DNA of 64,000 bases from Candidatus Woesearchaeota archaeon (GCA_038874135.1 JAVZCZ010000001.1:128001-192000); one strand, 5' to 3'. Positions 1 through 55,045 are shown, counted from the first letter of the stretch. Notes: generated from the letters alone by a model not told the origin. Program-made: numbers and translations.

Positions 1-660
1 AGGGGACAACGATTGGCGGACAGTTTGGCTGGGGTGGCACTCGGCTGAAAGGATATCAGCCGAGCCCAAAGGTCGGCTCAACCGGGTCAGAAATCCGGTG
101 TGGAGTGCAAAGGCAAAAGCCGGCCTGACTGGATTCCCGACAAGGAAGAATCCAGGAGAGAAATCTGGGCTTAGCGAACCTCAATGTCCTCCTTGGTGGG
201 GGCTTGAGATGACCGAAAAGTTACTCCGGGGATAACAGAGTTGTCCCGCCCGAGAGTTCACATCGACGGCGGGGCTTGCTACATCGATGTCGGCTCTTCC
301 TATCCTGGCTGTGCAGAAGCAGCCAAGGGTGGGGGTGTTCACCCATTAAAAGGGATCGTGAGCTGGGTTCACAACGTTGCGAGACAGTTGGTTTAATATC
401 TACTGGGAATGCACTAGTGTCTGAGGGGAAGGACCATTTAGTACGAGAGGAACAATGGTTCGGCGCCTCTGGTCGACCGGTTATCCGACAGGGTAGGCCG
501 GGCAGCTACGCGCTAAGGGATAAGAGCTGAAAGCATCTAAGCTTGAAACCCGCCTCAAAAAGAGACACGGATGGGATACTCCTAGAAGAGGAGTTTGATG
601 GAACTGGGGTGTAAGTGCGAAGGTATACGACGCATTCAGCCCGCAGTCACCAATAATCCC
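1..660 (+). rRNA. rrl: 23S rRNA, 3' part (domains V-VI), archaeal; 5' end outside window, 3' end approximate
   Basis: P-loop CAGTTTGGCTGGGGTGG, PTC motifs GGGATAACAG and CGATGTCGGCTC, GAGCTGGGTT, sarcin-ricin loop AGTACGAGAGGAAC at 440-453, GCTGAAAGCATCTAAGC. No 5S follows. Confidence 0.97.
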
Positions 661-922
661 GCCTCTTATTTTGCTTCCTATGCATGGTTATCATTTTTTA
701 TTCTAAACTTATTGTTCAAAAAACACAATAATTAGAAAAAATAAAAATTAAAATTGGAAAAAAATATAAGTTCATAAAATAATTCTATTCTAAGGATTGT
801 TAGAATTATGCCGGTAAAATTTTGGTTTAGGAGTTTTTTTAGCAAAAATTGATTTTTTGGAAAAAAATATGATTATGATAAGAAAGTTAAATAACTTAAA
901 AGATGGAAATAAAAATTTTACT

Positions 923-4870: not shown

Positions 4871-5422
4871 TTACTTCTTAGCTCCTCGGGGTCCAGAGTA
4901 AAATATGTTGCTTATGTTGAAGTCGCCCGGCTTATAATTTCCAGTTCTAACCTCAGGAGTTGCTCCCTCTCCCCTCTTGCTTCCGCTGGATGGGATTATC
5001 CCCTGCTGGTTAGGCTGAACCTGCTGCTGTTGCTGGGGTGTGGAGGTCTGAGCCATCTGCTGTGCCTGTCTGGGCTGTGAGCTAAGCTGGTTGACTGCCG
5101 CTTCAATTTCTGAGATCTTCTTTTCAAACTTGTTTATCTCTCCTATCATCTCATTCATCTTTGACTGCAGCTGAAGGATAGCTTCGCCCTGCTGTCTAAG
5201 CTGCTGTTTAAGCTCTTTCAGCTCGTCAGGCTGCGGTGCCGGTTTTTCTTCCTGCTGCGCGGGCTGCTGCGAAATTGTAGTTTTTATATCGCCCTTAACT
5301 TGTATTGACCTTTCTGCCTGTCTTAAAGCGTCCTGTATGTCCGTCGCGAGTCCGTGTTTCATTAGCTCCTTGGCAAGTGCTTCAACCTTTTTTACCCTTT
5401 CAATGTCTGACAAATCTCTCAC
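4871..5422 (-). CDS. hypothetical coiled-coil, Gln-rich protein
   Basis: 183-aa ORF in ORF track; heptad region and Q-rich linker. Confidence 0.65.
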   Translation of the reverse strand: MRDLSDIERVKKVEALAKELMKHGLATDIQDALRQAERSIQVKGDIKTTISQQPAQQEEKPAPQPDELKELKQQLRQQGEAILQLQSKMNEMIGEINKFEKKISEIEAAVNQLSSQPRQAQQMAQTSTPQQQQQVQPNQQGIIPSSGSKRGEGATPEVRTGNYKPGDFNISNIFYSGPRGAKK

Positions 5423-5474
5423 CTGTACGATTCAAATATTTTTTTAGCGTAGAAGAGTAGAAGAGCATCTCTTT

Positions 5475-5855
5475 TTAAGCTTTCTCTTTTTTGTCCTGTG
5501 AATTCTCTTCTTGCTGATTTTGTGTGTTTTCACTCTGCTGATTATTTTTTGAGTTTTGTTCAGCAAGTTTCTGCTCTTCATTCTTTATCAAAACGTCCAT
5601 AAGCTTTCTTAGGGTTATTGTTGATTCAGCTATGTTGTATTCGGGAGTTTCTGCCTTTCTCGCTATATCTTCAGGATTTTCTTCTATCTGGCTCGTATGC
5701 GTTGGTGATTTTTTCTGTCTTTCTATTATCTGAGCTGCAATCCTTCTAGACTCATCTACAGTGTAGCCTGGAATTGTTCTTCTCAGGGCTAGTGCCAAAT
5801 TTTCAATCTCCTCATCTTCGCTCTTGCACTCTTCCTTATGCTCTTCCTCAACCAT
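5475..5855 (-). CDS. hypothetical protein
   Basis: 126-aa ORF directly downstream of the ZPR1 gene. Confidence 0.6.
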   Translation of the reverse strand: MVEEEHKEECKSEDEEIENLALALRRTIPGYTVDESRRIAAQIIERQKKSPTHTSQIEENPEDIARKAETPEYNIAESTITLRKLMDVLIKNEEQKLAEQNSKNNQQSENTQNQQEENSQDKKEKA

Positions 5856-5863
5856 ATTTTACC

Positions 5864-6454
5864 CTACTTTTTTAGCTTCTCCACAGTTGCCTTTTCAGAG
5901 ATTATTGCAGAATTTCCTGTTGGGTCTTCAATTATTATCTTCAATTTTTCTCTTCCCCAAAGAGTCCTGTCAATCTTTTTGATTAGATTCTTTGCTTTTT
6001 CCCTATTTTCCTCATCTTCGTCATTCTCCCTTATTGACTGCAACACATCCCTGAACTTTGTAAGAAGCCCTTCAACATTTGTTACGAAGCCCTCTGCAAA
6101 CTCTCCAGGTTCAAGATTTCCAACATAAGGAATTTTTACCATACCTGAGGAGGAGCGCACTACTCTTACCTTAAGATCATTTTCTGATGAGACCTCAAAA
6201 GTGTATCTTAAAGGACCTTTATTCTCAATCACTTCCACATCCGACTTTTTGAACTCGCAGCTTGAGCATTTCATTGAGAATATTGAAACTGGCCCGAAGT
6301 ATGGTATTTCAGTGTCTTCTTCTCTGAGAGTGAGCGTGTTTTTTCCGCAAACCGGGCAGGTTTGCCCAGTCATTTCAACCGGCTCTCTGAGAATTTCCTG
6401 CTGGTAATCCTTCTCATTTTCTTTTTCCAACTCAGAATCTTTTATTTTTCGCAT
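5864..6454 (-). CDS. ZPR1-type zinc finger protein
   Basis: CPVCG..EIPYFG..CSSC, VVRSS, GFVTNVEG, IIEDPTGNSAI. Confidence 0.93.
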   Translation of the reverse strand: MRKIKDSELEKENEKDYQQEILREPVEMTGQTCPVCGKNTLTLREEDTEIPYFGPVSIFSMKCSSCEFKKSDVEVIENKGPLRYTFEVSSENDLKVRVVRSSSGMVKIPYVGNLEPGEFAEGFVTNVEGLLTKFRDVLQSIRENDEDEENREKAKNLIKKIDRTLWGREKLKIIIEDPTGNSAIISEKATVEKLKK

Positions 6455-6544
6455 GTTTCAGGATTAATCTGCGCTGTATAAAAATATTTTGTTTTGGTAG
6501 GGCAAAAGATTAATAACCCTGAAGCACTTCTTTAAATATTTGAC

Positions 6545-7273
6545 ATGGAGCTTACCCTCTTGATAGTGTTGATGTCTGCGTTGGCGCCAGTTCTCGGCTC
6601 ATTCATAGGCATTTTGTTCTACCCTTCTAAAAGTTTGACTGCTGACATGCTCGCATTTGCAGCTGGAATAATGCTTGGAATATCCTTTCTGGAGTTGATT
6701 CCTTTCTCCCTACAAATTTCGGGATTGATAATATGCGTGCTCGGCTTTCTAGTAGGCTCGCTTTTGATGTACCTGCTAGACAGAATTCTTCCTCACATTC
6801 ATCCAGAGTTAAGTTCTAATGAGCCTGGGAAGCAGCTGAAAAAAACAGCACTATTCTTGATAATAGGAATCTTCCTGCACAACTTTCCTGAAGGGATGGC
6901 GATAGCCGTTGGGAGTGTTGCCGGGGTAAGAATCAGCCTGGCAGTTGCTGTTGGAATTGCTATTCACAACATCCCAGAGGGAATATGCACCTCGGCTCCG
7001 TACTACTATTGTACAAAGAAGCGCCTTAAATCCTTTCTGCTCTCCTCAATCACAGCAATTCCTGTAGTTTTAGGATTCCTGACGGGAAGGTTGTTATATT
7101 CTCTAGATTTGAGCGCATTATCCAGTTTTATAGCTTCCCTCACAGCAGGTTTTATGATATACATCTCTGCGGATCAGCTCATTCCAAGCGCGTTTAATCT
7201 TTCTTATAGGCACGACACGATATTCTCTTTTATAGGCGGAATTGTGCTAGTGCTACTTCTGATGACAATTTAA
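6545..7273 (+). CDS. ZIP family divalent metal transporter (ZupT-like)
   Basis: AFAAGIM, LHNFPEG, IHNIPEG, multiple TM segments. Confidence 0.92.
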   Translation: MELTLLIVLMSALAPVLGSFIGILFYPSKSLTADMLAFAAGIMLGISFLELIPFSLQISGLIICVLGFLVGSLLMYLLDRILPHIHPELSSNEPGKQLKKTALFLIIGIFLHNFPEGMAIAVGSVAGVRISLAVAVGIAIHNIPEGICTSAPYYYCTKKRLKSFLLSSITAIPVVLGFLTGRLLYSLDLSALSSFIASLTAGFMIYISADQLIPSAFNLSYRHDTIFSFIGGIVLVLLLMTI

Positions 7274-7336
7274 GATTCTAAAACGGGAAAAGATTTTAAA
7301 AGCTAGGCTACGAACCTAAAATTCGGAGGTGAAATA

Positions 7337-7534
7337 ATGCCTGTTGTAAAGATTGAATCTTGGCCTCTTGACAAGGATAAGAAGCCGTGGCTCATAAAGA
7401 AGATAACTGACATCTTTGGCGAGATGGGCGTTCCTAAAGAGGCTGTTACTGTGATTATAAGCGAGGTTCCTCTTGAGAATTGGGGAAGTGGAGGGGAGCA
7501 GCACTCAGTCAAGTTTGGCAGAATGAAAATGTGA
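7337..7534 (+). CDS. 4-oxalocrotonate tautomerase family protein
   Basis: N-terminal catalytic Pro, V.VIISEVPLENWGSGG; SD GGAGGTGA. Confidence 0.9.
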   Translation: MPVVKIESWPLDKDKKPWLIKKITDIFGEMGVPKEAVTVIISEVPLENWGSGGEQHSVKFGRMKM

Positions 7535-7569
7535 AAGATTTTTAAAGAATTGCCGTATTCCATTTGCAG

Positions 7570-9459
7570 ATGATTAAGTTCAAGACAACTGCAGAGATAA
7601 AGGTTTCAGAAAGGATAATAGACCAGGTAATAGGTCAGGATGAGGCAGTTGAGATAATAAAGAAGGCTGCCAAGCAGAGGCGTCATGTTCTCCTCATTGG
7701 AGAGCCCGGCACTGGAAAATCAATGCTTGGGATGGCACTTGCAGAGATGCTTCCGAAGGAGAAGCTTGTGGATGTACTCGCATTCTACAATCCTAATGAT
7801 GAGAATCAGCCGCTGATAAGGACCGTTCCAGCAGGCAAGGGAAGGGAGATAGTTGCCAGGGCTCGTGCAGAGTCAATTCTGAGCTCAAGAAATCAGAACA
7901 TAATATACTGGATTCTAGCAATCTTGGCACTGATAGTTCCGTGGTGGGCTCGCGACTATTACAAATCAGACATAATCTTCGGCGCATTATTTATTGGTGG
8001 AATGCTCTTTCTTAGCAGCGTAATATTTGCGCTTAATTCCGGAATAAGGCAGAAGAACAATGTAGTAACGCCTCCTAAGGTTATTGTAGATAACTATGGT
8101 AGGAAGCATGCTCCATTTTATGACGCTACTGGAGCTCACGCCGGAGCTCTCCTGGGAGACGTGCTTCACGACCCTTTTCAAAGTGGAGGTCTAGGCACGC
8201 CTGCTCATGAGAGGGTAGTTGCCGGCATGATTCACAAGGCTCACATGGGAGTCCTCTTTATTGATGAGATTGCCACTCTTGAACCTGCAACCCAGCAGGA
8301 ACTCTTAACAGCACTTCAGGAGGGAAAGTACCCCATAACTGGTCAGTCTGAGAGAAGTGCTGGAGCCATGGTGCGAACAGAAATGGTGCCCTGCAACTTC
8401 ATCCTCGTTGCTGCGGGAAATGTTGATACCATAAAGCATATGCACCCTGCACTCCGTTCAAGAATTAGGGGCTATGGTTATGAGGTTTATATGCACGAAA
8501 CTATGAAGGACACTGAGGAAAATAGGGACAAGATTGTCAGATTTGTGGCTCAGGAGGTTAAAAAGGACAAGAGGATTCCCCATTTTACACGGGAAGCTGT
8601 TGAGCTGATAATAAACTATGCTCGCAAGATGGCTAACAGGAAGGGTCACCTGACCCTGCGCTTCAGAGAGCTCGGCGGCTTAGTCCGTGCAGCTGGCGAT
8701 GTAGCTATTGAGGAGGGTTCAAAGTATGTTGAGAAGAGGCACGTTTTGAAAGCCGCCACCTTTGCCAGGACTCTGGAGCAGCAGCTGGCTGACCACTATA
8801 TTGAAAGGAAGCGCGAGTATGAAGTAATAAGGGTTTCTGGAAAGCAGGTTGGAAGGGTTAATGGGCTGGCTGTCATTGGGGACGAAAACGCGTTCTCAGG
8901 AATAATTCTTCCGATAGAGGCAGAAGTAACTCCAGGTGGAAAGCAGAAGGAGTTTACTGCCACTGGAAAGCTTGGTGAGATTGCTAAGGAAGCTGTAATT
9001 AATGTTTCTGCAATTATAAAGAAATACTTTGGAGAGGATATTAAGAAGTATGACATCTTTATCCAGTTCCTTCAAACATATGAGGGTGTAGAGGGTGATA
9101 GTGCCAGCGTGGCAGTAGCGACTGCTGTGATAAGCGCTCTTAAAAAGGTGCCCGTGAAGCAGGACTACGCGATGACGGGCTCCCTCTCTGTCAGAGGAGA
9201 AGTTCTCCCGGTTGGAGGCGTTTCTGCCAAGGTTGAAGCGGCTATAGATGCAGGAATAAAACATGTCATAGTTCCAAGGTCAAACCTGCACGACATAGTA
9301 ATAAGCTCGGAGAAGCTCGCTAAGATAAAGCTGATACCTGTTAGCAATATTGTAGATGTTTTAAAAGAGGTTATTGACTGGAACGGCAAGAGTGATATAC
9401 TTCAAAGGATAATAGAGCTTAACGGCACCAATGCAGAGAATGTTTCTTCTGAAAAGTAG
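7570..9459 (+). CDS. lonB: ATP-dependent protease LonB (membrane-anchored)
   Basis: GEPGTGKS, two TM helices, LFIDEI, GDSAS Ser and GGVSAKVEAA Lys dyad; no intein. Confidence 0.96.
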   Translation: MIKFKTTAEIKVSERIIDQVIGQDEAVEIIKKAAKQRRHVLLIGEPGTGKSMLGMALAEMLPKEKLVDVLAFYNPNDENQPLIRTVPAGKGREIVARARAESILSSRNQNIIYWILAILALIVPWWARDYYKSDIIFGALFIGGMLFLSSVIFALNSGIRQKNNVVTPPKVIVDNYGRKHAPFYDATGAHAGALLGDVLHDPFQSGGLGTPAHERVVAGMIHKAHMGVLFIDEIATLEPATQQELLTALQEGKYPITGQSERSAGAMVRTEMVPCNFILVAAGNVDTIKHMHPALRSRIRGYGYEVYMHETMKDTEENRDKIVRFVAQEVKKDKRIPHFTREAVELIINYARKMANRKGHLTLRFRELGGLVRAAGDVAIEEGSKYVEKRHVLKAATFARTLEQQLADHYIERKREYEVIRVSGKQVGRVNGLAVIGDENAFSGIILPIEAEVTPGGKQKEFTATGKLGEIAKEAVINVSAIIKKYFGEDIKKYDIFIQFLQTYEGVEGDSASVAVATAVISALKKVPVKQDYAMTGSLSVRGEVLPVGGVSAKVEAAIDAGIKHVIVPRSNLHDIVISSEKLAKIKLIPVSNIVDVLKEVIDWNGKSDILQRIIELNGTNAENVSSEK

Positions 9460-37865: not shown

Positions 37866-39488
37866 ATGAGAGCGAAAGACTACTCAACCTGGACAAAAGA
37901 AGAGTTAATAAAAGAATTAGAGAAGTTCAAGAAGCAAAAGAAATACGGCATTGTTTGGGAAGACAAACCTGAACAAGTAGCATTAATGTGCAAGGAAAAG
38001 CTTCCCGTTCTCACAGAAGTCAAGGACAAAGAGATAATCACAGACCCTAACAAGCCAACAAACATACTAATTGAAGGAGACAACTACCACGCTCTTTCCG
38101 TATTGAATTACACCCACAAAGGAAAAATAGATGTCATCTACATTGACCCGCCGTACAATACAGGAAATGAAGGATTTATGTATAATGACAAGATAGTTGA
38201 TAAAGAAGACGCTTATAGACACTCAAAATGGCTCTCATTTATGGAAAAAAGACTTCGCCTGGCCAGAAACCTCTTGAGCGATAAAGGAGTTATCTTTATT
38301 TCTATTGATGATAATGAGGTAGCACAATTAAAGCTTTTATGTGATGAGATTTTTGGAGAGGAGAATTGCATAGGGATATTTGTTTGGAGAAAAAAAGCAG
38401 GAGCAGGAGCAGATTCAAAATTATTGTTTACTCAACACGAATATATCTTATTTTATTCGAAAAATATTAAGAATTTAGATAGATTTTTTGAACCTCTTAC
38501 AGAAAAACAAAAATCCGAATATAAAAATCCAGACAATGACCCACGGGGATTATGGGCTCCTACTGATTTGACTGCTCCTTCTTCGGATACAGATAATTCA
38601 AGATTATATGAGGTTGTGAGTCCAACAGGTAAAAAATGGTTAAGAAGATGGTCCTATACAAAAGAAAATATGAGAAAATTAATAGAACAAAATTTAGTTT
38701 GGTTTGGGAAAGATGGAAATGCGATGCCAAAAAGAAAGAGGTTTCTTTCTGAAAAACAAGGACTGGTTCCAAGGTCGTGGATTGATTTTGTTTTAACATC
38801 TGATGGTAAAAAGGATTTCGAGGATATTTTTGGAAAAGATAATCGATTATTTGAGTATCCCAAACCAACTTTATTAATTAAACATTTAATAAGAATCCCA
38901 AGCAAAAAGAATTCTATTATCCTTGACTTCTTTGCTGGCTCTGGTACCACAGGCCACGCTGTTTTAGAATTAAATAAAGAAGATGGCGGAAATAGGAAGT
39001 TTATTTTATGCACTAACAACGAAAACAACATATGCACAGATGTATGTTATCCGAGAATTGAGAAAGTAATTAAAGGATATAAGAATCTTAAAGGCGAAAA
39101 GGTTGAAGGTTTAGGCGGTAATTTAAAATATTTCAAAACTGACTTTGTAGATGCTAAACCAACAGATAAAAACAAGAAAAAATTAGTTGATGAATCTACA
39201 GAAATGCTTTGCTTGAAGGAAGATTGCTTTGATTTTGTTTTAGAAGGCCGTAACTTTAAGATTTTCAAGAACAACGAAGACAAGTACTTAGGCATAATTT
39301 ACGATGATGACGGAATTGAGCCGTTCAAGAAAGAAGCCAAAAAATTAAATAAGAAGTTTATTGTTTATGTTTTCTCTCTTGATGACAGCGCGCGAGAAGA
39401 AGAATTTGAAGATTTAGAAAATGTTGAGTTAAAGCCAATTCCAGCAGTTATACTTAATGTTTATAAAAGAATTTTTAGAGGGCTTTAA
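37866..39488 (+). CDS. mod: Type III restriction-modification methyltransferase (beta-class N6-adenine)
   Basis: LIEGDN, IYIDPPYNTG, FISIDDNE, YPKP, LDFFAGSGTT. Confidence 0.95.
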   Translation: MRAKDYSTWTKEELIKELEKFKKQKKYGIVWEDKPEQVALMCKEKLPVLTEVKDKEIITDPNKPTNILIEGDNYHALSVLNYTHKGKIDVIYIDPPYNTGNEGFMYNDKIVDKEDAYRHSKWLSFMEKRLRLARNLLSDKGVIFISIDDNEVAQLKLLCDEIFGEENCIGIFVWRKKAGAGADSKLLFTQHEYILFYSKNIKNLDRFFEPLTEKQKSEYKNPDNDPRGLWAPTDLTAPSSDTDNSRLYEVVSPTGKKWLRRWSYTKENMRKLIEQNLVWFGKDGNAMPKRKRFLSEKQGLVPRSWIDFVLTSDGKKDFEDIFGKDNRLFEYPKPTLLIKHLIRIPSKKNSIILDFFAGSGTTGHAVLELNKEDGGNRKFILCTNNENNICTDVCYPRIEKVIKGYKNLKGEKVEGLGGNLKYFKTDFVDAKPTDKNKKKLVDESTEMLCLKEDCFDFVLEGRNFKIFKNNEDKYLGIIYDDDGIEPFKKEAKKLNKKFIVYVFSLDDSAREEEFEDLENVELKPIPAVILNVYKRIFRGL

Positions 39489-39489
39489 T

Positions 39490-50287: not shown

Positions 50288-50345
50288 TGCTTAGTCCCAA
50301 TTTTTTGCTGGAAAGATTTTTATTTTAAACAATACTCTGTTAGTT

Positions 50346-51290
50346 ATGCTTCCGCGAAGTATTTTCAAGAAGGGACTATTCTTAGCCCCAATGGCTCTCT
50401 ATTCTGATTATGGCTTGAGGAGATTATGCTTTGAATACGGGGCTGACTACACCTTTACCGAGATGATAAGTGCCCACACAATAGTTAGAAAGGATTTAGA
50501 AAAAATCAGGGAGCTTGACATTTTAGATGATGAGGTTCCAACTGGAATTCAAATATTAACCTTCAGCCCTGAAATGCTAAAGGGCGCGATAGAAAAAATT
50601 CAGCATAGCAAAATTTCTGAGAGGATTTCAAGCGTGTGCCTCAACTTGGGATGCCCAAATGTCAGGAACAACGGCGCTTTTCTTTTAAACAATTTGGAAT
50701 TAATAAGGAAACTCTTCATAGCGATGGAGACCTCTAAACTTCCGACCTCTGCAAAGATTAGGCTTGCAATAGATGAAAAGCACCTTCTAGAAAAACCATA
50801 CTTAAAGATTGCGGAATTAGCTGAAAAGCATTTGGACTTCTTAATAGTTCATGGAAGAACTCTCTCCCAAAGGTTCTCTGGAAGAGTAAATCTTGATGCT
50901 ATTCGGGAGATAAAAGAATCAGTTTCAATTCCAGTAGTGGGCAATGGCGACATAAAGAGCGGCATTGAAGCAGGGCACATGTTTAAAGAAACTGGATGCG
51001 ATGCAGTAATGATTGGAAGAGCAGCAATAAGAAAGCCGTTCATATTCAAAGAGATAAAGCACTACTTAAGAACAGGAAGTGAAATTAAAATTGACGAGAA
51101 GCAGGAGCTCCTTAAATGCGCTGTGAATTATCTAAATATGCAGAAGCAGGCTAACTTTTCAGCGTTTCAGACGAGAGTACACCTGCAAGCCCTTCTTAGG
51201 AGATTTAAGCAGCTTAACAGGCAGATCTCATTGGAGCGGACTGTTGAAGGGATGCGGACAGCGGTTCTGAAAGAGTATAACAAGCTTTGA
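50346..51290 (+). CDS. dus: tRNA-dihydrouridine synthase family protein
   Basis: LAPM, TEMI, LNLGCP, AKIR, VHGRT, GNGDI, MIGRAA. Confidence 0.92.
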   Translation: MLPRSIFKKGLFLAPMALYSDYGLRRLCFEYGADYTFTEMISAHTIVRKDLEKIRELDILDDEVPTGIQILTFSPEMLKGAIEKIQHSKISERISSVCLNLGCPNVRNNGAFLLNNLELIRKLFIAMETSKLPTSAKIRLAIDEKHLLEKPYLKIAELAEKHLDFLIVHGRTLSQRFSGRVNLDAIREIKESVSIPVVGNGDIKSGIEAGHMFKETGCDAVMIGRAAIRKPFIFKEIKHYLRTGSEIKIDEKQELLKCAVNYLNMQKQANFSAFQTRVHLQALLRRFKQLNRQISLERTVEGMRTAVLKEYNKL

Positions 51291-51472
51291 AAGAATTTTT
51301 AAAAGATATCTGAAGCACATTTAACAAAATATACGACAAATATACAAAAAAGAAATATTTATATATTAGTATACCTTTTATTGATAAAAGAGCCCTGCAG
51401 TCCCGAATACAAAAAGCCAAGTTAACTCCACACCTGCTATGTATTTGAGTCGAGAGAGGGGGAAGTCGCGAG

Positions 51473-51679
51473 ATGAAACAGATATCTAAAAAATCTGAAA
51501 GGTTTAATCAGGGGAGAGCTTCCTCAATAGAGGAATACCTCTCCCATTCTTCCCTCTCAAAAAAATTCTCAGCAGAAGAGCTAAACGAGCTAAAAGAGTT
51601 CCTAACCTCAGAATCCAACTATCACAGCTACCTCAAACAGGTGAGAGAAAACCTTCTAAAATACCAAAACAGAATTTAA
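51473..51679 (+). CDS. small hypothetical protein
   Basis: 68-aa ORF with G-rich upstream region. Confidence 0.45.
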   Translation: MKQISKKSERFNQGRASSIEEYLSHSSLSKKFSAEELNELKEFLTSESNYHSYLKQVRENLLKYQNRI

Positions 51680-51708
51680 CATTTTAAAAGCTGGAATAAG
51701 AAAAAAAG

Positions 51709-51782
51709 CGAGCCAGCGAGGATTTGAACCCCGATCATCCGGTCCGAAGCCGGACGCACTATCCAGGTTATGCTACTGGCCC
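51709..51782 (-). tRNA. tRNA-Arg(TCG)
   Basis: GGGCCAG acceptor, TCCGG-CTTCGGA-CCGGA anticodon arm, GGTTCAAATCC. Confidence 0.95.
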
Positions 51783-51860
51783 GCTAAACTTGCTGTTATG
51801 TGCATCCAATTATAAAACTTTTCCTCAGAATCAAAATTTAAGAAGAGAATGCATAAGGGA

Positions 51861-52436
51861 CTAGCGGGCTTCCTCTTTTGACTCCTTATGCTTAAGCTTA
51901 TTAAGGTACATTGCCCTGTCAGCTTCCCTGATCAATCTGCGGATCTGCTTGTTAGGGCCATACGCGCTGCCAATGGACACTTCGGGATTCAGCCCGTCTT
52001 CAGTGCGATAATTTTTAAGCTCATCTTGCAGAAGAGTTATCTTGTTCTCAATTGTGCACAATTCAACCTTGGGAAGCACAACTGCGAACTCGTCACCGCC
52101 TATCCTGGCAACTAGGTCTGTTTCTCTAAAATTATTTTTTAATGTTTGGCTTACACTTATTATTAGAATGTCTCCTGTAGTGTGACCATAGGTATCATTA
52201 ACATACTTCAAGTTATCTATATCCAGCATTATGAAGCTTACAGAATAATCAGCTCTGTCCTTTTCAATTCTCCTGATTTCGTTTTCATAATAAGCCCTGT
52301 TGTATAAGCCTGTGAGAGCATCGTGAATTGCTAGAAATTCTATCTCCTTAAATGCTGCAATTATTGCTACTTTCGCATCATTGGGGATGTCTTTTCTTTT
52401 TAGAATTTCTTCAAGTTTTCGGTAAATGCTTATCAT
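51861..52436 (-). CDS. GGDEF-domain diguanylate cyclase
   Basis: HDALTGLYNR, DIDNLKYVNDTYGH..GD, RETD I-site, ARIGGDEF, SIG, ADRAMY..K. Confidence 0.95.
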   Translation of the reverse strand: MISIYRKLEEILKRKDIPNDAKVAIIAAFKEIEFLAIHDALTGLYNRAYYENEIRRIEKDRADYSVSFIMLDIDNLKYVNDTYGHTTGDILIISVSQTLKNNFRETDLVARIGGDEFAVVLPKVELCTIENKITLLQDELKNYRTEDGLNPEVSIGSAYGPNKQIRRLIREADRAMYLNKLKHKESKEEAR

Positions 52437-52480
52437 TTTAAATTGAAATTAAAAAAGGTAAGTTTTGAATTTTTAGCTTC

Positions 52481-52762
52481 TTACTTTCTTACCAGTTTTA
52501 TCTCAATTGAGGACACTCTGACATCCTTTCCTTCTTTGTTTTTGAACTCCTCGCTTGAGATTTGGATGTCTCCAACCTTTGCCTGATCCTGAAGGAATCT
52601 CTTGCAGGCAACTTCTGCAATGTCCACTGCTCTGCTTATGAATTTTCCCCTGGCTTTTATTGTTATCTCGTTTGCGTTTTTTGTTGTGAACTGCATCACT
52701 ACTGCAGTCACATAGTTCATAAAGGGCTTGTTTCCCACAAAGATTGAGTTGTCCGCTGCCAT
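52481..52762 (-). CDS. albA: DNA/RNA-binding protein Alba
   Basis: IFVGNKPFMNYV, IKARGKFISRAVD, VSSIEI. Confidence 0.97.
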   Translation of the reverse strand: MAADNSIFVGNKPFMNYVTAVVMQFTTKNANEITIKARGKFISRAVDIAEVACKRFLQDQAKVGDIQISSEEFKNKEGKDVRVSSIEIKLVRK

Positions 52763-52797
52763 TTTTGCTTACCTCCGTTTAAATGTTTTTTTGCTTT

Positions 52798-52992
52798 TTA
52801 CTCTGCCTTTCGCTTAGCCAATCTTGTAACATATCCTGCTATTATGTTTCTTACCCTCTTTGAGGGCACAAAGTTTAGCTTCTCAGCCACTACCTTCTTA
52901 TTCTTCTCAAAATCTGTTGTCAGCTCGCTTCTATGCTTTTCAATGAGCTCCCTGCTTACCCTCTTGATCATGTTCGTCTTTATTCGTCCCAA
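52798..52992 (-). CDS. rps17e: 30S ribosomal protein eS17 (TTG start)
   Basis: GRIKT..IKR..DFEKNK..SKRVRNIIAGYVT; SD GGAGG. Confidence 0.96.
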   Translation of the reverse strand: MGRIKTNMIKRVSRELIEKHRSELTTDFEKNKKVVAEKLNFVPSKRVRNIIAGYVTRLAKRKAE

Positions 52993-53828
52993 TTCAAATC
53001 CCTCCCAAAGTTTTTGTGGTTGCTCCTTTGGAGTTTATAAAGCATATTTAAATGTTTCTAAATTAAATGTTTATAAAAATTTCATTCGGAAAATCAGAAA
53101 GATTAGAAGATTTGAAGAATTAAAAATTTTAAAATGTTTTTGAATGAATTTTTTAGGAGCAGTACTTACAGCTTAATTTTTCTTACTCAACTTTAATCAT
53201 AAATCTTTAAATAAGGATAAGTAGTTGTAAGCTTAAATTTACTAGCTTATTCTCACTTTTTTAGGATTAAGCTAGTGTTAGGCTTAGTTTAAGGAAAAAA
53301 TAGCGAATTCTCTCATAGTGCCTAAACATTTGAACATTTTTGTTAATTGCGCTTCTGGCTTTGTTAAGTTAAATTCTTTCAAACATTTTTTGTGTTATTT
53401 TTTATTGTGTTTTTTCTTTTTTTATTATTTTTATTATTTTTTATCTCTGTTTTCTCTCATTTTTTATTCTCAAAACTTTGGTAGGAGCAATTTTTCTAAG
53501 AATTTTAAAATTCAAAAAAAATAAATAATATTCTTTGATATATATAATTTATTAATAATATTTTAACAATATTATTATAAAACAATTATTAAGACAGATT
53601 TTTTAAAAAAGTTATATACAAATAATTTTAATTAAAAATTTATTTTTTTAATATTATTTTGTATAATATATTTATTTAAGGTAAATTTTGATAAAAATTT
53701 TTTAGCATAAATAAAAATTTTTAATTAAATTTGATATAGAAAAATATTTAAAGTCACACATTTTATTATCATTATTTAGTAGTAAAATATTGCAAATTAG
53801 GCTGTTTATTCGTGAGGGGGTGTTTTAA

Positions 53829-54029
53829 ATGCGTGGACAGGATTTTGAGAATAAAGTAAGATTTTCATTCGCAGTTGCAAAGCAGGATGTTGAAAACTTA
53901 AAGAACAGCGTTTCTGACTGGATACTATTCCTAGATGCAAATCAGAGAGAATTAAAAGAGAGAATAAGAGTGCTGGAAGCAAAAATGAGAATGCTTGAAA
54001 CAATGCAGAAGAGCACGCTTTTTGAATAG
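53829..54029 (+). CDS. small coiled-coil hypothetical protein
   Basis: SD-like GGGGGTG; heptad pattern; resembles the N-terminus of 57929-58492. Confidence 0.7.
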   Translation: MRGQDFENKVRFSFAVAKQDVENLKNSVSDWILFLDANQRELKERIRVLEAKMRMLETMQKSTLFE

Positions 54030-54153
54030 GTTAAATCTTTCTTAATCTTTTTCCTGTTTTTCTAATTTCTTTTTCTAATTTTAACATTTTAACCAGGCAT
54101 TTTTCTAACAAATTTAGGCATCTAAAGCCAAAAGCGAAAGATTTAAATATAAA

Positions 54154-54181
54154 AGTGCGTATAAGGTATATTATACGAATA
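54154..54181. other. dif-like Xer recombination site AGTGCGTATAA-GGTATA-TTATACGAATA
   Basis: 11-6-11 architecture, inverted CGTATAA arms, 20/28 identity to E. coli dif as recalled, ends 24 bp before xerA ATG. Confidence 0.8.
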
Positions 54182-54205
54182 TAATGGTTTGTAAGGCAGC
54201 TGAGC

Positions 54206-55045
54206 ATGAATGAGCAACTAATAAAGGACCTGGGACTTACCAAATTAGCAGCTGAATTAAAGCTGAGAGGCTTCAGCCCTCAGACAGTTAAAACATACCT
54301 ATTCCAGAATGCCAAGTTTCTGCTCTCAGCCAAGAAGAAAGTTGAAGAAGTAGACGAAGACGATATAAAAGGATATCTCGCAATGCTTATGGAACAAGGT
54401 GCATCTCCTAGGACAATAGGGCTCACAAAAGCAGCATTAAAGTTCTTTTATGACAACATACTGCAGAGAGGCATAGTAGAGTTTCCCACGCCCAAAATAA
54501 GAAGGACACTACCAGTTGTTTTATCACGGGAAGAAATAAAGCGCATGATTGAAAACGCACCTACTGAAAAGAGCAGAGTCATAATTGAGCTGCTTTATTC
54601 CTCAGGACTCCGCGTCTCGGAGTGTTCTGCATTAAAGCTTGCTGATTTAGAGATTCCCGAAAAAATTGGCTGGGTAAGAGGTGGCAAGGGCGGCAAAGAC
54701 AGGATGTTCATACTCTCAGAAAGACTCATAAAGGACTTAAAACACTACATTTACAAGGAAAAAATTAGAGATTGGCTCTTTCCAGGAAAGAACAATGAAC
54801 ACATAAGTGCCAGGGACATACAGCAAATTGTAAAGAGGTGCGCCATCAGGGCAGGAATCAAGAAAAAGGTCTCACCGCACACCTTAAGGCATAGTTTTGC
54901 CACACACCTACTTGAAAGTGGCACGGACATCAGAAAGATTCAGGAGCTCTTAGGCCACTCCAACTTGCAGACCACTCAGATATATACCAGTGTTAGCAAT
55001 GCTGAACTGATAAAAGTAAAGAGCCCTTTAGACATTCTTAAGTAA
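54206..55045 (+). CDS. xerA: tyrosine recombinase XerA
   Basis: LRGFSPQTVKTY, SSGLRVSE, GKGGKDR, HTLRHSFATHLLE, LLGHSNLQTTQIYT. Confidence 0.93.
   Translation: MNEQLIKDLGLTKLAAELKLRGFSPQTVKTYLFQNAKFLLSAKKKVEEVDEDDIKGYLAMLMEQGASPRTIGLTKAALKFFYDNILQRGIVEFPTPKIRRTLPVVLSREEIKRMIENAPTEKSRVIIELLYSSGLRVSECSALKLADLEIPEKIGWVRGGKGGKDRMFILSERLIKDLKHYIYKEKIRDWLFPGKNNEHISARDIQQIVKRCAIRAGIKKKVSPHTLRHSFATHLLESGTDIRKIQELLGHSNLQTTQIYTSVSNAELIKVKSPLDILK

What the first reader, a model, noticed from the sequence alone, without database searches (positions are those of the whole stretch)
51861..52436. Catalytically intact diguanylate cyclase embedded among core archaeal genes
Seen: all canonical DGC elements are present, namely the DALTGLYNR wide turn, metal-binding D in LDIDNLK, N/D guanine contacts (VNDTYGH..GD), the exact GGDEF and an RxxD inhibitory site (RETD) five residues upstream. 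A short helical N-terminus could dimerise, and there is no sensor domain. The gene lies co-directionally in rps17e-albA-GGDEF-tRNA-Arg, so it is not on an obvious mobile element or a bacterial contig. Known: c-di-GMP is a bacterial messenger for attachment and motility and is not an established archaeal signal. No EAL, HD-GYP, PilZ or MshEN partner is visible in this window. Inference: either an undescribed archaeal c-di-GMP circuit, for example controlling pili or host attachment, or a messenger made to manipulate a bacterial partner.
Basis: partly seen in the sequence, partly recalled or inferred. Interest (0 to 1): 0.85.

Follow-up and report, generated by a model that had tools for sequence, protein, structure and literature searches.

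The report
Orphan diguanylate cyclase in a Woesearchaeon
A tiny hot-spring DPANN archaeon carries a native, selection-maintained, sensor-less version of the bacterial enzyme that makes the messenger c-di-GMP, a kind of gene first described in archaea in 2026 and found here to be common in this group although the usual degrading enzymes and receptors are missing.

Summary
Window 51861-52436(-) encodes a 191-aa GGDEF protein (Pfam E 3e-39) with every catalytic and I-site residue. It lies between albA and tRNA-Arg on a closed 0.91-Mb Woesearchaeal chromosome that also carries archaeal 23S rRNA. An independent assembly from a second hot-spring sample reproduces the junctions, so it is not a chimera.

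It is not a singleton. The same rps17e-albA-GGDEF locus occurs in a sister genus, there as PAS-GGDEF followed by tRNA-Arg, and on a JGI contig. Two other families of the order have albA directly followed by tRNA-Arg. The gene was therefore inserted in the family ancestor, inherited vertically, and lost its PAS sensor. Selection is purifying (dN/dS about 0.19).

GGDEF genes occur in about 47% of sampled genomes of the order and phylum. In this genome I found no EAL, HD-GYP, PilZ or MshEN. Of 38 GGDEF-bearing relatives, 21 lack both canonical phosphodiesterases.

The kind is already published: Sidorov et al. 2026 (PMC13725321) report archaeal and DPANN GGDEF proteins with cyclase activity in bacterial hosts. 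This scan has noted such genes in at least 102 other genomes. The verdict is a new member of a known kind. Its value is as a clean "orphan cyclase" case, since receptors, turnover and function remain unknown.

The parts
51861..52436 (-). GGDEF diguanylate cyclase gene, 191 aa plus stop
   Evidence: PF00990 E 3.2e-39 and TIGR00254 E 4.3e-38. AF2 model pLDDT 95.5. Foldseek top hits are SiaD, DgcR, PleD, WspR and DgcB.
52326..52436 (-). N-terminal two-helix stalk, residues 1-37. It is a remnant of the PAS-GGDEF linker: 'KDIPNDAK' aligns with the PAS-end 'DIT.xK' motif of the longer relatives.
   Evidence: Alignment A2 and DSSP of the model. Its role in dimerisation is inferred.
51885..52331 (-). 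GGDEF catalytic domain, residues 36-184
   Evidence: Pfam envelope and residue-by-residue alignment to the active cyclases TpbB, DgcR and TM1788.
52086..52100 (-). Active-site motif G113-G-D-E-F117
   Evidence: Translation. G114 and E116 are invariant in 35 proteins of the order.
52116..52127 (-). I-site R104-E-T-D107 (RxxD), five residues before GGDEF
   Evidence: Translation. R104 is invariant in alignment A3 and D107 is at least 90% conserved.
52437..52480 (-). 44-nt albA-GGDEF spacer with an oligo-T run, A/T-rich TATA-like stretches and no Shine-Dalgarno sequence. Probably the gene's own archaeal promoter (inferred).
   Evidence: Sequence read directly. albA and rps17e have GGAGG-type sites and this gene has none.
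52481..52762 (-). albA, upstream core neighbour
   Evidence: PF01918 and NF003088. 81% identical to the albA at the syntenic locus in G003.
52798..52992 (-). rps17e, core neighbour
   Evidence: PF00833 and NF002242.
51708..51782 (-). tRNA-Arg(tcg), downstream neighbour. In other families of the order it directly follows albA.
   Evidence: ARAGORN and Rfam. Empty sites in G013 and G009.

Best explanation
This is a native, functional, minimal diguanylate cyclase of a hot-spring Woesearchaeon.

History. A PAS-GGDEF sensor cyclase was inserted between albA and tRNA-Arg in the ancestor of this family. Bacillota-, Nitrospirota- and Chloroflexota-type GGDEFs are the nearest outside relatives, and the donor is unresolved. 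The gene was then inherited vertically. In the lineage of this genus the PAS domain was deleted, leaving the linker helix plus the catalytic domain.

Proposed mechanism (inferred). Two copies pair through the N-terminal helices. Each GGDEF domain binds GTP with Mg2+ through D72, E116, N80, D89 and K77, and the pair condenses 2 GTP to c-di-GMP. The product binds the RxxD I-site (R104/D107) and caps its own level. With no sensor domain, output is set by transcription from the gene's own promoter or by an unknown protein partner, as SiaC does for SiaD.

Downstream. The genome has no EAL or HD-GYP. Removal must therefore rely on feedback inhibition, dilution or a non-canonical hydrolase, for which the 341-aa DHH-DHHA1 protein is a candidate. 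The signal is read by receptors of no known class.

Shown: gene identity, intact motifs and fold, archaeal provenance, family-level synteny, purifying selection, wide occurrence in the group, and no detected canonical partner.

Inferred: enzyme activity, dimerisation, feedback, the promoter, and everything downstream.
For: Family and motifs.

Fold: AF2 pLDDT 95.5. Foldseek E about 1e-13 to SiaD (7e6g), DgcR (6zxb), PleD, WspR and coiled-coil DgcB (6ttr).

Substrate specificity: D89 is Asp, not the Ser of Hypr cGAMP-forming GGDEFs (criterion quoted in PMC13725321).

Provenance:
- The genome is a single 909,956-bp contig, 99.4% complete.
- Archaeal LSU rRNA lies at window 1-673.
- An 86-kb contig in X1 has 0 differences, and an independent 50.9-kb contig in X2 (another sample and year) spans 50301-53300 with 4 SNPs.
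- Gene GC is 0.396 against 0.408 for the genome.

Inheritance:
- G003, same family but another genus, has rps17e-albA-[PAS-GGDEF, 323 aa]-tRNA-Arg(tcg).
- JGI contig L133 has integrase...rps17e-albA-GGDEF (184 aa, 62% identical).
- There are five further short-form ortholog clusters at 52-62% identity.
- With the three family genes held as one clade, the tree's log-likelihood is 16.7 higher than the free quick tree, p-AU 0.79.
- Empty sites, with albA directly followed by tRNA-Arg(tcg), occur in G013 and G009.

Selection: dN/dS is 0.19 between G000 and G001. Both SNPs inside the gene in X2 are synonymous (T82, P151).

Group-wide occurrence: 141 of 301 genomes of the order and 142 of 301 high-quality genomes of the phylum have a GGDEF.

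Precedent for activity: short GGDEF-only proteins from DPANN MAGs gave catalysis-dependent signals in a c-di-GMP riboswitch reporter (PMC13725321).
Against: No activity data exist for this protein. c-di-GMP has never been measured in an archaeal cell (PMC10249747; PMC13725321 used bacterial hosts only, and none of its seven cloned MAG proteins was consistent in all three assays).

Isolated GGDEF domains are often monomeric and weakly active, and loss of the PAS domain could have crippled activation.

No phosphodiesterase, PilZ or MshEN was found in the genome, so there is no visible circuit.

The GGDEF domain of G003 is more similar to Nitrospirota cyclases (up to 55% identity) than to this protein (41%). 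Either the short form evolved fast, or the locus was hit twice.

dS is near saturation (1.76), so the dN/dS value is rough. The same-genus ortholog has Glu in place of the nearly invariant G84.
Confidence: 0.68

Rival explanations
1. The protein is a catalytically crippled remnant. After the PAS sensor was lost it no longer forms productive dimers. It persists as a c-di-GMP- or GTP-binding protein through its I-site or A-site, or as a scaffold that acts by protein-protein contacts, and it makes little or no messenger.
For: There is no sensor or dimerisation domain beyond about 37 residues. No phosphodiesterase or receptor is found in the genome. PMC13725321 reports catalysis-independent phenotypes for several archaeal GGDEF proteins. 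The G001 ortholog has a G84E change.
Against: Every catalytic residue is kept in six short-form orthologs that have diverged to 52-62% identity, and dN/dS is about 0.19. A pure binding role would not require D72, N80, D89 and the GGDEF motif all to be retained. Stalk-plus-GGDEF enzymes such as DgcB, SiaD and GCN4-WspR are active cyclases (structures listed; activity from established knowledge).
Confidence: 0.17
2. The cyclase makes a different product, or serves a role other than housekeeping signalling. Examples are cGAMP or another dinucleotide, a defence signal, or a messenger delivered to the host or partner cell.
For: DPANN cells live attached to hosts. The genome also encodes a separate c-di-AMP cyclase, so dinucleotide signalling exists. 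No intracellular c-di-GMP receptor is recognisable.
Against: The guanine-specifying N80 and D89 are intact and the Hypr serine is absent. No defence-type effector or export gene is adjacent. The neighbours are albA, rps17e, a tRNA and Dus. There is no conserved operon partner in the orthologous loci.
Confidence: 0.1
3. The gene is an assembly artefact or bacterial contamination, or a recent bacterial transfer that is not yet integrated into the cell's biology.
For: GGDEF is typically bacterial. The nearest non-family relatives by identity are Bacillota and Chloroflexota proteins at 38-44%. The Woesearchaeal GGDEFs are interleaved with bacterial ones in the tree.
Against: The genome is a closed single contig carrying archaeal rRNA. 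An independent assembly from a second sample bridges both junctions. The locus is conserved in another genus and on a further metagenome contig. Composition is native. Selection is purifying.
Confidence: 0.02

Closest known systems
Archaeal GGDEF proteins of Sidorov, ... Romling 2026 (PMC13725321), in particular the short 'GGDEF-only' proteins from DPANN MAGs such as KHO53289.1 and KHO53915.1
   Same: These are archaeal (DPANN) proteins flanked by archaeal genes. They have an intact GG(D/E)EF motif and signature residues, little or no N-terminal domain, no Hypr serine, and models that match active bacterial cyclases.
   Different: This protein was not among those tested, and I could not compare sequences because the accessions are not retrievable here. 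This work adds a closed genome, a conserved core-gene locus with empty-site controls, a traceable PAS-loss history, a prevalence of about 47% where the paper says 'only occasionally', and a genome-wide lack of phosphodiesterases and receptors.
Bacterial stalk-plus-GGDEF cyclases: SiaD of P. aeruginosa (7e6g) and DgcB of Caulobacter (6ttr)
   Same: Both have a short N-terminal helical stalk directly followed by an I-site-bearing GGDEF domain. They are top Foldseek hits. NF038266 SiaD matches residues 30-181.
   Different: The scores are far below the SiaD equivalog cut-off (101.6 against 290 bits). No SiaABC-like partner genes are present. The stalk here is shorter, at about 37 residues, and is modelled as two helices.
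PleD and WspR, I-site-regulated response-regulator cyclases
   Same: They share the catalytic core, the RxxD product-inhibition site five residues before GGDEF, and the fold.
   Different: There is no REC domain, and no two-component partner was looked for or seen nearby.
PAS-GGDEF sensor cyclases, such as the G003 ortholog annotated at NCBI as 'sensor domain-containing diguanylate cyclase [Candidatus Woesearchaeota archaeon]' and the LOV-GGDEF structure 8c05
   Same: The G003 protein is the syntenic ortholog. The N-terminus of this protein aligns with the PAS-end motif and linker of those proteins.
   Different: The PAS domain, about 130 residues, is deleted here. Only 44 nt separate the gene from albA.

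Membership tests
GGDEF diguanylate cyclase (PF00990 / TIGR00254), catalytically competent class | Profile match above the curated cut-off | tested here: met
   134.7 bits against a cut-off of 23.8, and 130.7 against 37.4.
GGDEF diguanylate cyclase (PF00990 / TIGR00254), catalytically competent class | GG(D/E)EF active-site hairpin plus the metal-binding Asp (PleD D327 equivalent) | tested here: met
   G113-GDEF117 and D72. These are invariant or nearly invariant in the alignments. They align to TpbB, DgcR and TM1788.
GGDEF diguanylate cyclase (PF00990 / TIGR00254), catalytically competent class | Guanine-specific contacts (Asn and Asp; not the Ser of Hypr cGAMP synthases) | tested here: met
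   N80 and D89, both invariant in 35 relatives.
GGDEF diguanylate cyclase (PF00990 / TIGR00254), catalytically competent class | GGDEF (palm-like) fold | tested here: met
   pLDDT 95.5. 130 PDB matches at E <= 0.001, and the 50 listed are all GGDEF cyclase structures.
GGDEF diguanylate cyclase (PF00990 / TIGR00254), catalytically competent class | Allosteric I-site RxxD five residues upstream of GGDEF | tested here: met
   R104-ETD107.
GGDEF diguanylate cyclase (PF00990 / TIGR00254), catalytically competent class | Homodimerisation that brings two GTP-loaded domains together | tested here: inconclusive
   One homodimer prediction gave no verdict (see Tried and rejected). It needs SEC-MALS or crosslinking.
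GGDEF diguanylate cyclase (PF00990 / TIGR00254), catalytically competent class | Conversion of 2 GTP to c-di-GMP | not testable with these tools
   An enzyme assay is required.
Complete c-di-GMP signalling module (cyclase + phosphodiesterase + receptor) | EAL or HD-GYP phosphodiesterase in the same genome | tested here: not met
   PF00563 and PF13487 give no match in the 99.4%-complete single-contig genome, and the control genomes ring. The three HD proteins are YhaM-like, HDIG and HD_3 types.
Complete c-di-GMP signalling module (cyclase + phosphodiesterase + receptor) | Known receptor: PilZ, MshEN or a c-di-GMP riboswitch | tested here: not met
   PilZ and MshEN give no match. There is no MshEN motif in the six-frame translation. 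RF01786 gives none, with a valid control. RF01051 gives none, but its control rang nowhere, so that negative is unvalidated.
Archaeal (DPANN) GGDEF proteins as defined in PMC13725321 | Gene flanked on both sides by unambiguously archaeal genes | tested here: met
   rps17e, albA, tRNA-Arg, and archaeal LSU rRNA on the same contig.

The most novel reading that the evidence does not exclude
c-di-GMP is a mainstream messenger of Nanoarchaeia (Woesearchaeales and relatives) that runs on parts unlike the bacterial ones. In this reading, about half of the lineages keep GGDEF cyclases, most of them without EAL, HD-GYP, PilZ or MshEN. The signal would be read by a receptor class that has not been described. 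It would be removed by non-canonical enzymes, for example small DHH-DHHA1 proteins, one of which is translationally coupled to a PocR-GAF-GGDEF gene in a sister family. This closed 0.91-Mb genome, with one cyclase and about a thousand genes, would be the smallest search space in which to find those parts.
Probability: 0.35. Interest if true: 0.75.

Novelty: new member of a known kind. Interest (0 to 1): 0.5.

Why it matters
Until 2026, reviews stated that archaea lack c-di-GMP signalling (PMC10249747, PMC5847659). The first report of archaeal GGDEF cyclases (PMC13725321) leaves prevalence, origin, phosphodiesterases and receptors open.

This locus contributes four things.
- It is a contamination-proof example, on a closed genome with an independently assembled junction.
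- It has a dated history: insertion next to a tRNA in a family ancestor, then loss of the sensor domain.
- It comes with a prevalence figure of about 47% of Nanoarchaeia genomes sampled, which is not 'occasional'.
- It is a minimal test bed, with one cyclase, no canonical partner and about 900 kb to screen for new c-di-GMP receptors or hydrolases.

It does not show that the messenger is made or used.

Tried and rejected
1. Homodimer prediction (complex prediction, 2 copies, alignment A3). The result was no verdict (score 0.03, mark 0.42). It is not evidence either way.

2. RNA evidence. No RNA holder is listed among the sequencing runs, so expression is untested.

3. c-di-GMP-I riboswitch (RF01051) in the own genome and in 60 relatives. 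Nothing was found, but the control genomes did not ring either, so the negative is unvalidated.

4. Resolving a bacterial donor. The tree had 116 GGDEF domains and 165 columns. The Woesearchaeal sequences need at least 11 label changes, but well-supported branches force only 2, so the number and direction of transfers is unresolved.

5. Conserved operon partner of the short form. None was found. The downstream genes differ between orthologous loci (small ORFs, a GNAT and a radical-SAM gene in G001-type contigs; tRNA-Arg, a 68-aa ORF and Dus here).

6. The GGDEF-linked DHH-DHHA1 protein of G035 as a universal phosphodiesterase. Close orthologs occur only in 4 other genomes (G005, G041, G046, G031). 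G000 has only a 22%-identical paralog. It was rejected as a general partner and kept as a lead.

7. G002, same family, as a 'loss' case. It was rejected because albA is not found in that 89%-complete assembly either, so the locus is unassembled.

8. The integrase at 54206-55045 as a sign of a mobile element. It is a XerC/D-type recombinase that is also near the locus in L133. With no repeats or foreign composition seen, it was read as the housekeeping Xer recombinase. This was not tested further.

Full report
OBSERVATION. The ORF at window 51861-52436 on the minus strand encodes 191 residues. An in-frame stop lies four codons upstream of its ATG, and albA ends 44 nt upstream, so the protein cannot be longer. 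It matches Pfam GGDEF at E 3.2e-39 over profile positions 1-159 of 161, and TIGR00254 at 4.3e-38.
- the DALTGLYNR turn (residues 39-47)
- D72 in LDIDNLK
- N80 and D89 in VNDTYGHTTGD
- RETD (104-107), followed by five residues and then GGDEF (113-117)

In an alignment of 35 GGDEF proteins from the same archaeal order, D72, N80, H85, G88, D89, R111, G114, E116 and K180 are invariant, and R104, G113 and F117 are at least 90% conserved. HMMER aligns the protein residue for residue with solved, active cyclases (TpbB/YfiN 7a7e, DgcR 6zxm, TM1788 4urs). An AlphaFold2 model has mean pLDDT 95.5. It shows helices at residues 2-13 and 19-37 in front of a canonical GGDEF domain. Foldseek returns only diguanylate cyclases among the listed hits. 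The best are the stalk-plus-GGDEF enzymes SiaD (7e6g) and DgcR (6zxb), followed by PleD, WspR and coiled-coil DgcB.

PROVENANCE. The window is part of a single-contig genome of 909,956 bp that scores 99.4% complete and 0.24% contaminated. The window starts with the 3' end of an archaeal 23S rRNA. It carries archaeal core genes throughout: rps17e, albA, a wyosine-formation radical-SAM enzyme, LeuRS and enolase. Orthologs of the protein are labelled 'Candidatus Woesearchaeota archaeon' at NCBI, and the DNA occurs in hot-spring metagenomes. In run X1, the possible source sample, an 86-kb contig covers 50300-53300 with no difference. In run X2, a different sample and year, an independently assembled 50.9-kb contig covers 50301-53300 with four SNPs. 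Both junctions, albA-GGDEF and GGDEF-tRNA, are therefore reproduced. The gene's GC content (0.396) matches the genome's (0.408). Chimerism and contamination are excluded.

HISTORY OF THE LOCUS. The same-genus genome G001 has a 187-aa ortholog at 56-57% identity, at the start of a short contig. G003, from the same family but another genus, has rps17e, albA, a 323-aa PAS-GGDEF protein and tRNA-Arg(tcg) in the same order and orientation. A JGI metagenome contig (L133) has a Xer-type integrase, rps17e, albA and a 184-aa GGDEF protein at 62% identity. Five short-form ortholog clusters at 52-62% identity exist in public data.

In two other families of the order (G013 and G009), albA is followed directly by tRNA-Arg(tcg). 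These are empty sites. The GGDEF gene was therefore inserted between albA and the tRNA in the ancestor of this family and was then inherited vertically. G002, the only family member without a GGDEF hit, also lacks an albA hit, so its locus is simply not assembled.

In the domain tree the free search did not join G003 to the G000/G001 pair. When the three were held together, the log-likelihood was 16.7 units higher (p-AU 0.79). The N-terminus of the short form aligns with the end of the PAS domain and the linker of the longer relatives: 'KDIPNDAK' lines up against 'DITEKKK', 'DVTERKE' and 'DITRQKQ'. The 191-aa protein is thus a PAS-GGDEF cyclase that lost its sensor and kept the linker helix.

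One caveat applies. The GGDEF domain of G003 is up to 55% identical to Nitrospirota cyclases but only about 41% identical to this protein. Either the short form evolved quickly after the truncation, or, less likely, the site was hit twice.

SELECTION. Nei-Gojobori dN/dS between G000 and G001 is 0.19. With dS at 1.76 the comparison is near saturation, so the value is rough. The two SNPs inside the gene in the X2 population are both synonymous (T82 and P151). All catalytic residues survive in all short-form orthologs, with one exception: a G84E change in the G001 lineage.

HOW COMMON IS IT. GGDEF domains were found in the following samples:
- 38 of 61 relatives
- 141 of 301 genomes of the order, covering 113 of 216 genera
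- 142 of 301 high-quality genomes of the phylum sample, including other orders of the class; one family had 24 of 24 and another 0 of 12

Most of these are 300-650-aa proteins with PocR, GAF or PAS sensors. One has a REC domain and one a fused HD-GYP domain.

In a tree with 84 bacterial domains, the 32 Woesearchaeal domains fall into several groups. One is an exclusive 12-member PocR-GAF-GGDEF clade. The tree needs at least 11 label changes, but well-supported branches force only two, so the number of transfers is unresolved. The bacterial sample was chosen as nearest to the query and the scan was truncated.

This scan has already noted GGDEF genes in DPANN archaea 115 times, in at least 102 genomes.

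PARTNERS. In this genome there is one GGDEF gene and no match to EAL, HD_5 (HD-GYP), PilZ or MshEN, and the positive controls ring. No MshEN motif occurs in the six-frame translation. No c-di-GMP-II riboswitch is found. The c-di-GMP-I search is unvalidated because its control rang nowhere.

The three HD-domain proteins are a YhaM-like OB-HD nuclease, an HDIG protein and an HD_3 deoxynucleotidase-like protein. The genome also has three T2SSE-type secretion or pilus ATPases, a diadenylate cyclase and two DHH-DHHA1 proteins: a RecJ-like one of 362 aa and a small one of 341 aa.

Across the 61 relatives the counts are HD_5 in 22, EAL in 2-3, PilZ in 1 and MshEN in 0. Of the 38 GGDEF-bearing genomes, 17 also have HD_5 and 21 have neither HD_5 nor EAL. 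An 'orphan' cyclase is therefore the common condition in this order, not a peculiarity of this genome.

WHAT IS KNOWN. In 2018 the only accepted archaeal GGDEF was that of Methanocella, and others were suspected to be contamination (PMC5847659). A 2023 review still states that c-di-GMP has not been described in archaea (PMC10249747). In September 2026, Sidorov et al. (PMC13725321) reported GGDEF proteins in archaeal isolates and in 20 MAG proteins, mainly from DPANN, several of them 'GGDEF only'. They found intact motifs and catalysis-dependent signals for three of seven cloned proteins in a riboswitch reporter in E. coli. They state that prevalence, phosphodiesterases, receptors and origin are open questions, and that occurrence seems 'only occasional'. 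What this work adds is the locus history, the prevalence figure and the genome-wide lack of canonical partners.

MECHANISM (best reading, confidence about 0.68). I read the protein as a working minimal cyclase.
- It dimerises through the retained linker helices.
- It condenses two GTP to c-di-GMP.
- It limits itself through the RxxD I-site.
- It is controlled by transcription, or by an unknown partner as SiaC controls SiaD. The 44-nt spacer has an oligo-T run and A/T-rich TATA-like stretches and no Shine-Dalgarno sequence, unlike albA and rps17e.

Activity, dimerisation, feedback and all downstream steps are inferred.

The rivals are as follows:
- a crippled binding-only or scaffold remnant (0.17)
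- another product or an export or defence role (0.10)
- an artefact or a fresh transfer (0.02)

VERDICT. This is a new member of a recently described kind. Interest is moderate (0.5). It is a clean, closed-genome case of an orphan archaeal diguanylate cyclase and a good place to look for new c-di-GMP receptors and hydrolases.

Noticed in passing
L138 (G035:C1:238000-250000) 5392-8000, minus strand: In another family of the order, a 373-aa DHH-DHHA1 gene (6879-8000) overlaps by 25 nt the start of a 503-aa PocR-GAF-GGDEF gene (5392-6903), so the two are translationally coupled. A DHHA1 neighbour recurs at 5 GGDEF loci, and close orthologs occur in 4 other genomes (G005, G041, G046, G031). It is a candidate non-canonical c-di-GMP or pGpG hydrolase.
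   Followed up: partly
G000:C1:411553-411936 (outside the window; L144): The same genome encodes a diadenylate cyclase (DAC domain, E 7e-22, in a 443-aa open frame). This 0.91-Mb archaeon therefore has cyclases for both c-di-AMP and c-di-GMP.
   Followed up: no
window 1-673: The 3' end of an archaeal 23S rRNA (Rfam LSU_rRNA_archaea, 676 bits) lies at the window's start.
   Followed up: no
window 37866-41703: A DNA methylase (N6_N4_Mtase, 540 aa) and a ResIII/DEAD helicase (748 aa) are adjacent. They lie in a stretch of clearly lower GC (0.33 against 0.41 for the genome), which looks like an acquired type III-like restriction-modification island.
   Followed up: no
window 52993-54205: A 1.2-kb stretch between rps17e and the Xer-type recombinase gene has GC of only 0.24 and contains no ORF of 150 aa or more. 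Its content is unexplained.
   Followed up: no
L022 (G001:C35), L131, L132, L134: Contigs from four records (G001's own record and L134 may be the same assembly) all begin within about 170 nt upstream of the short GGDEF gene, so assemblies break repeatedly in the albA-GGDEF spacer or albA region. The G001-type orthologs also carry Glu in place of the nearly invariant G84 (YGH changed to YEH).
   Followed up: partly
L024 (G120:C3) 658-2529: One of the closest relatives in the order (41% identity) is a PAS-GGDEF-HD-GYP fusion of 624 aa. This is the same composite architecture reported for Methanocella GGDEF_MRE50.
   Followed up: no
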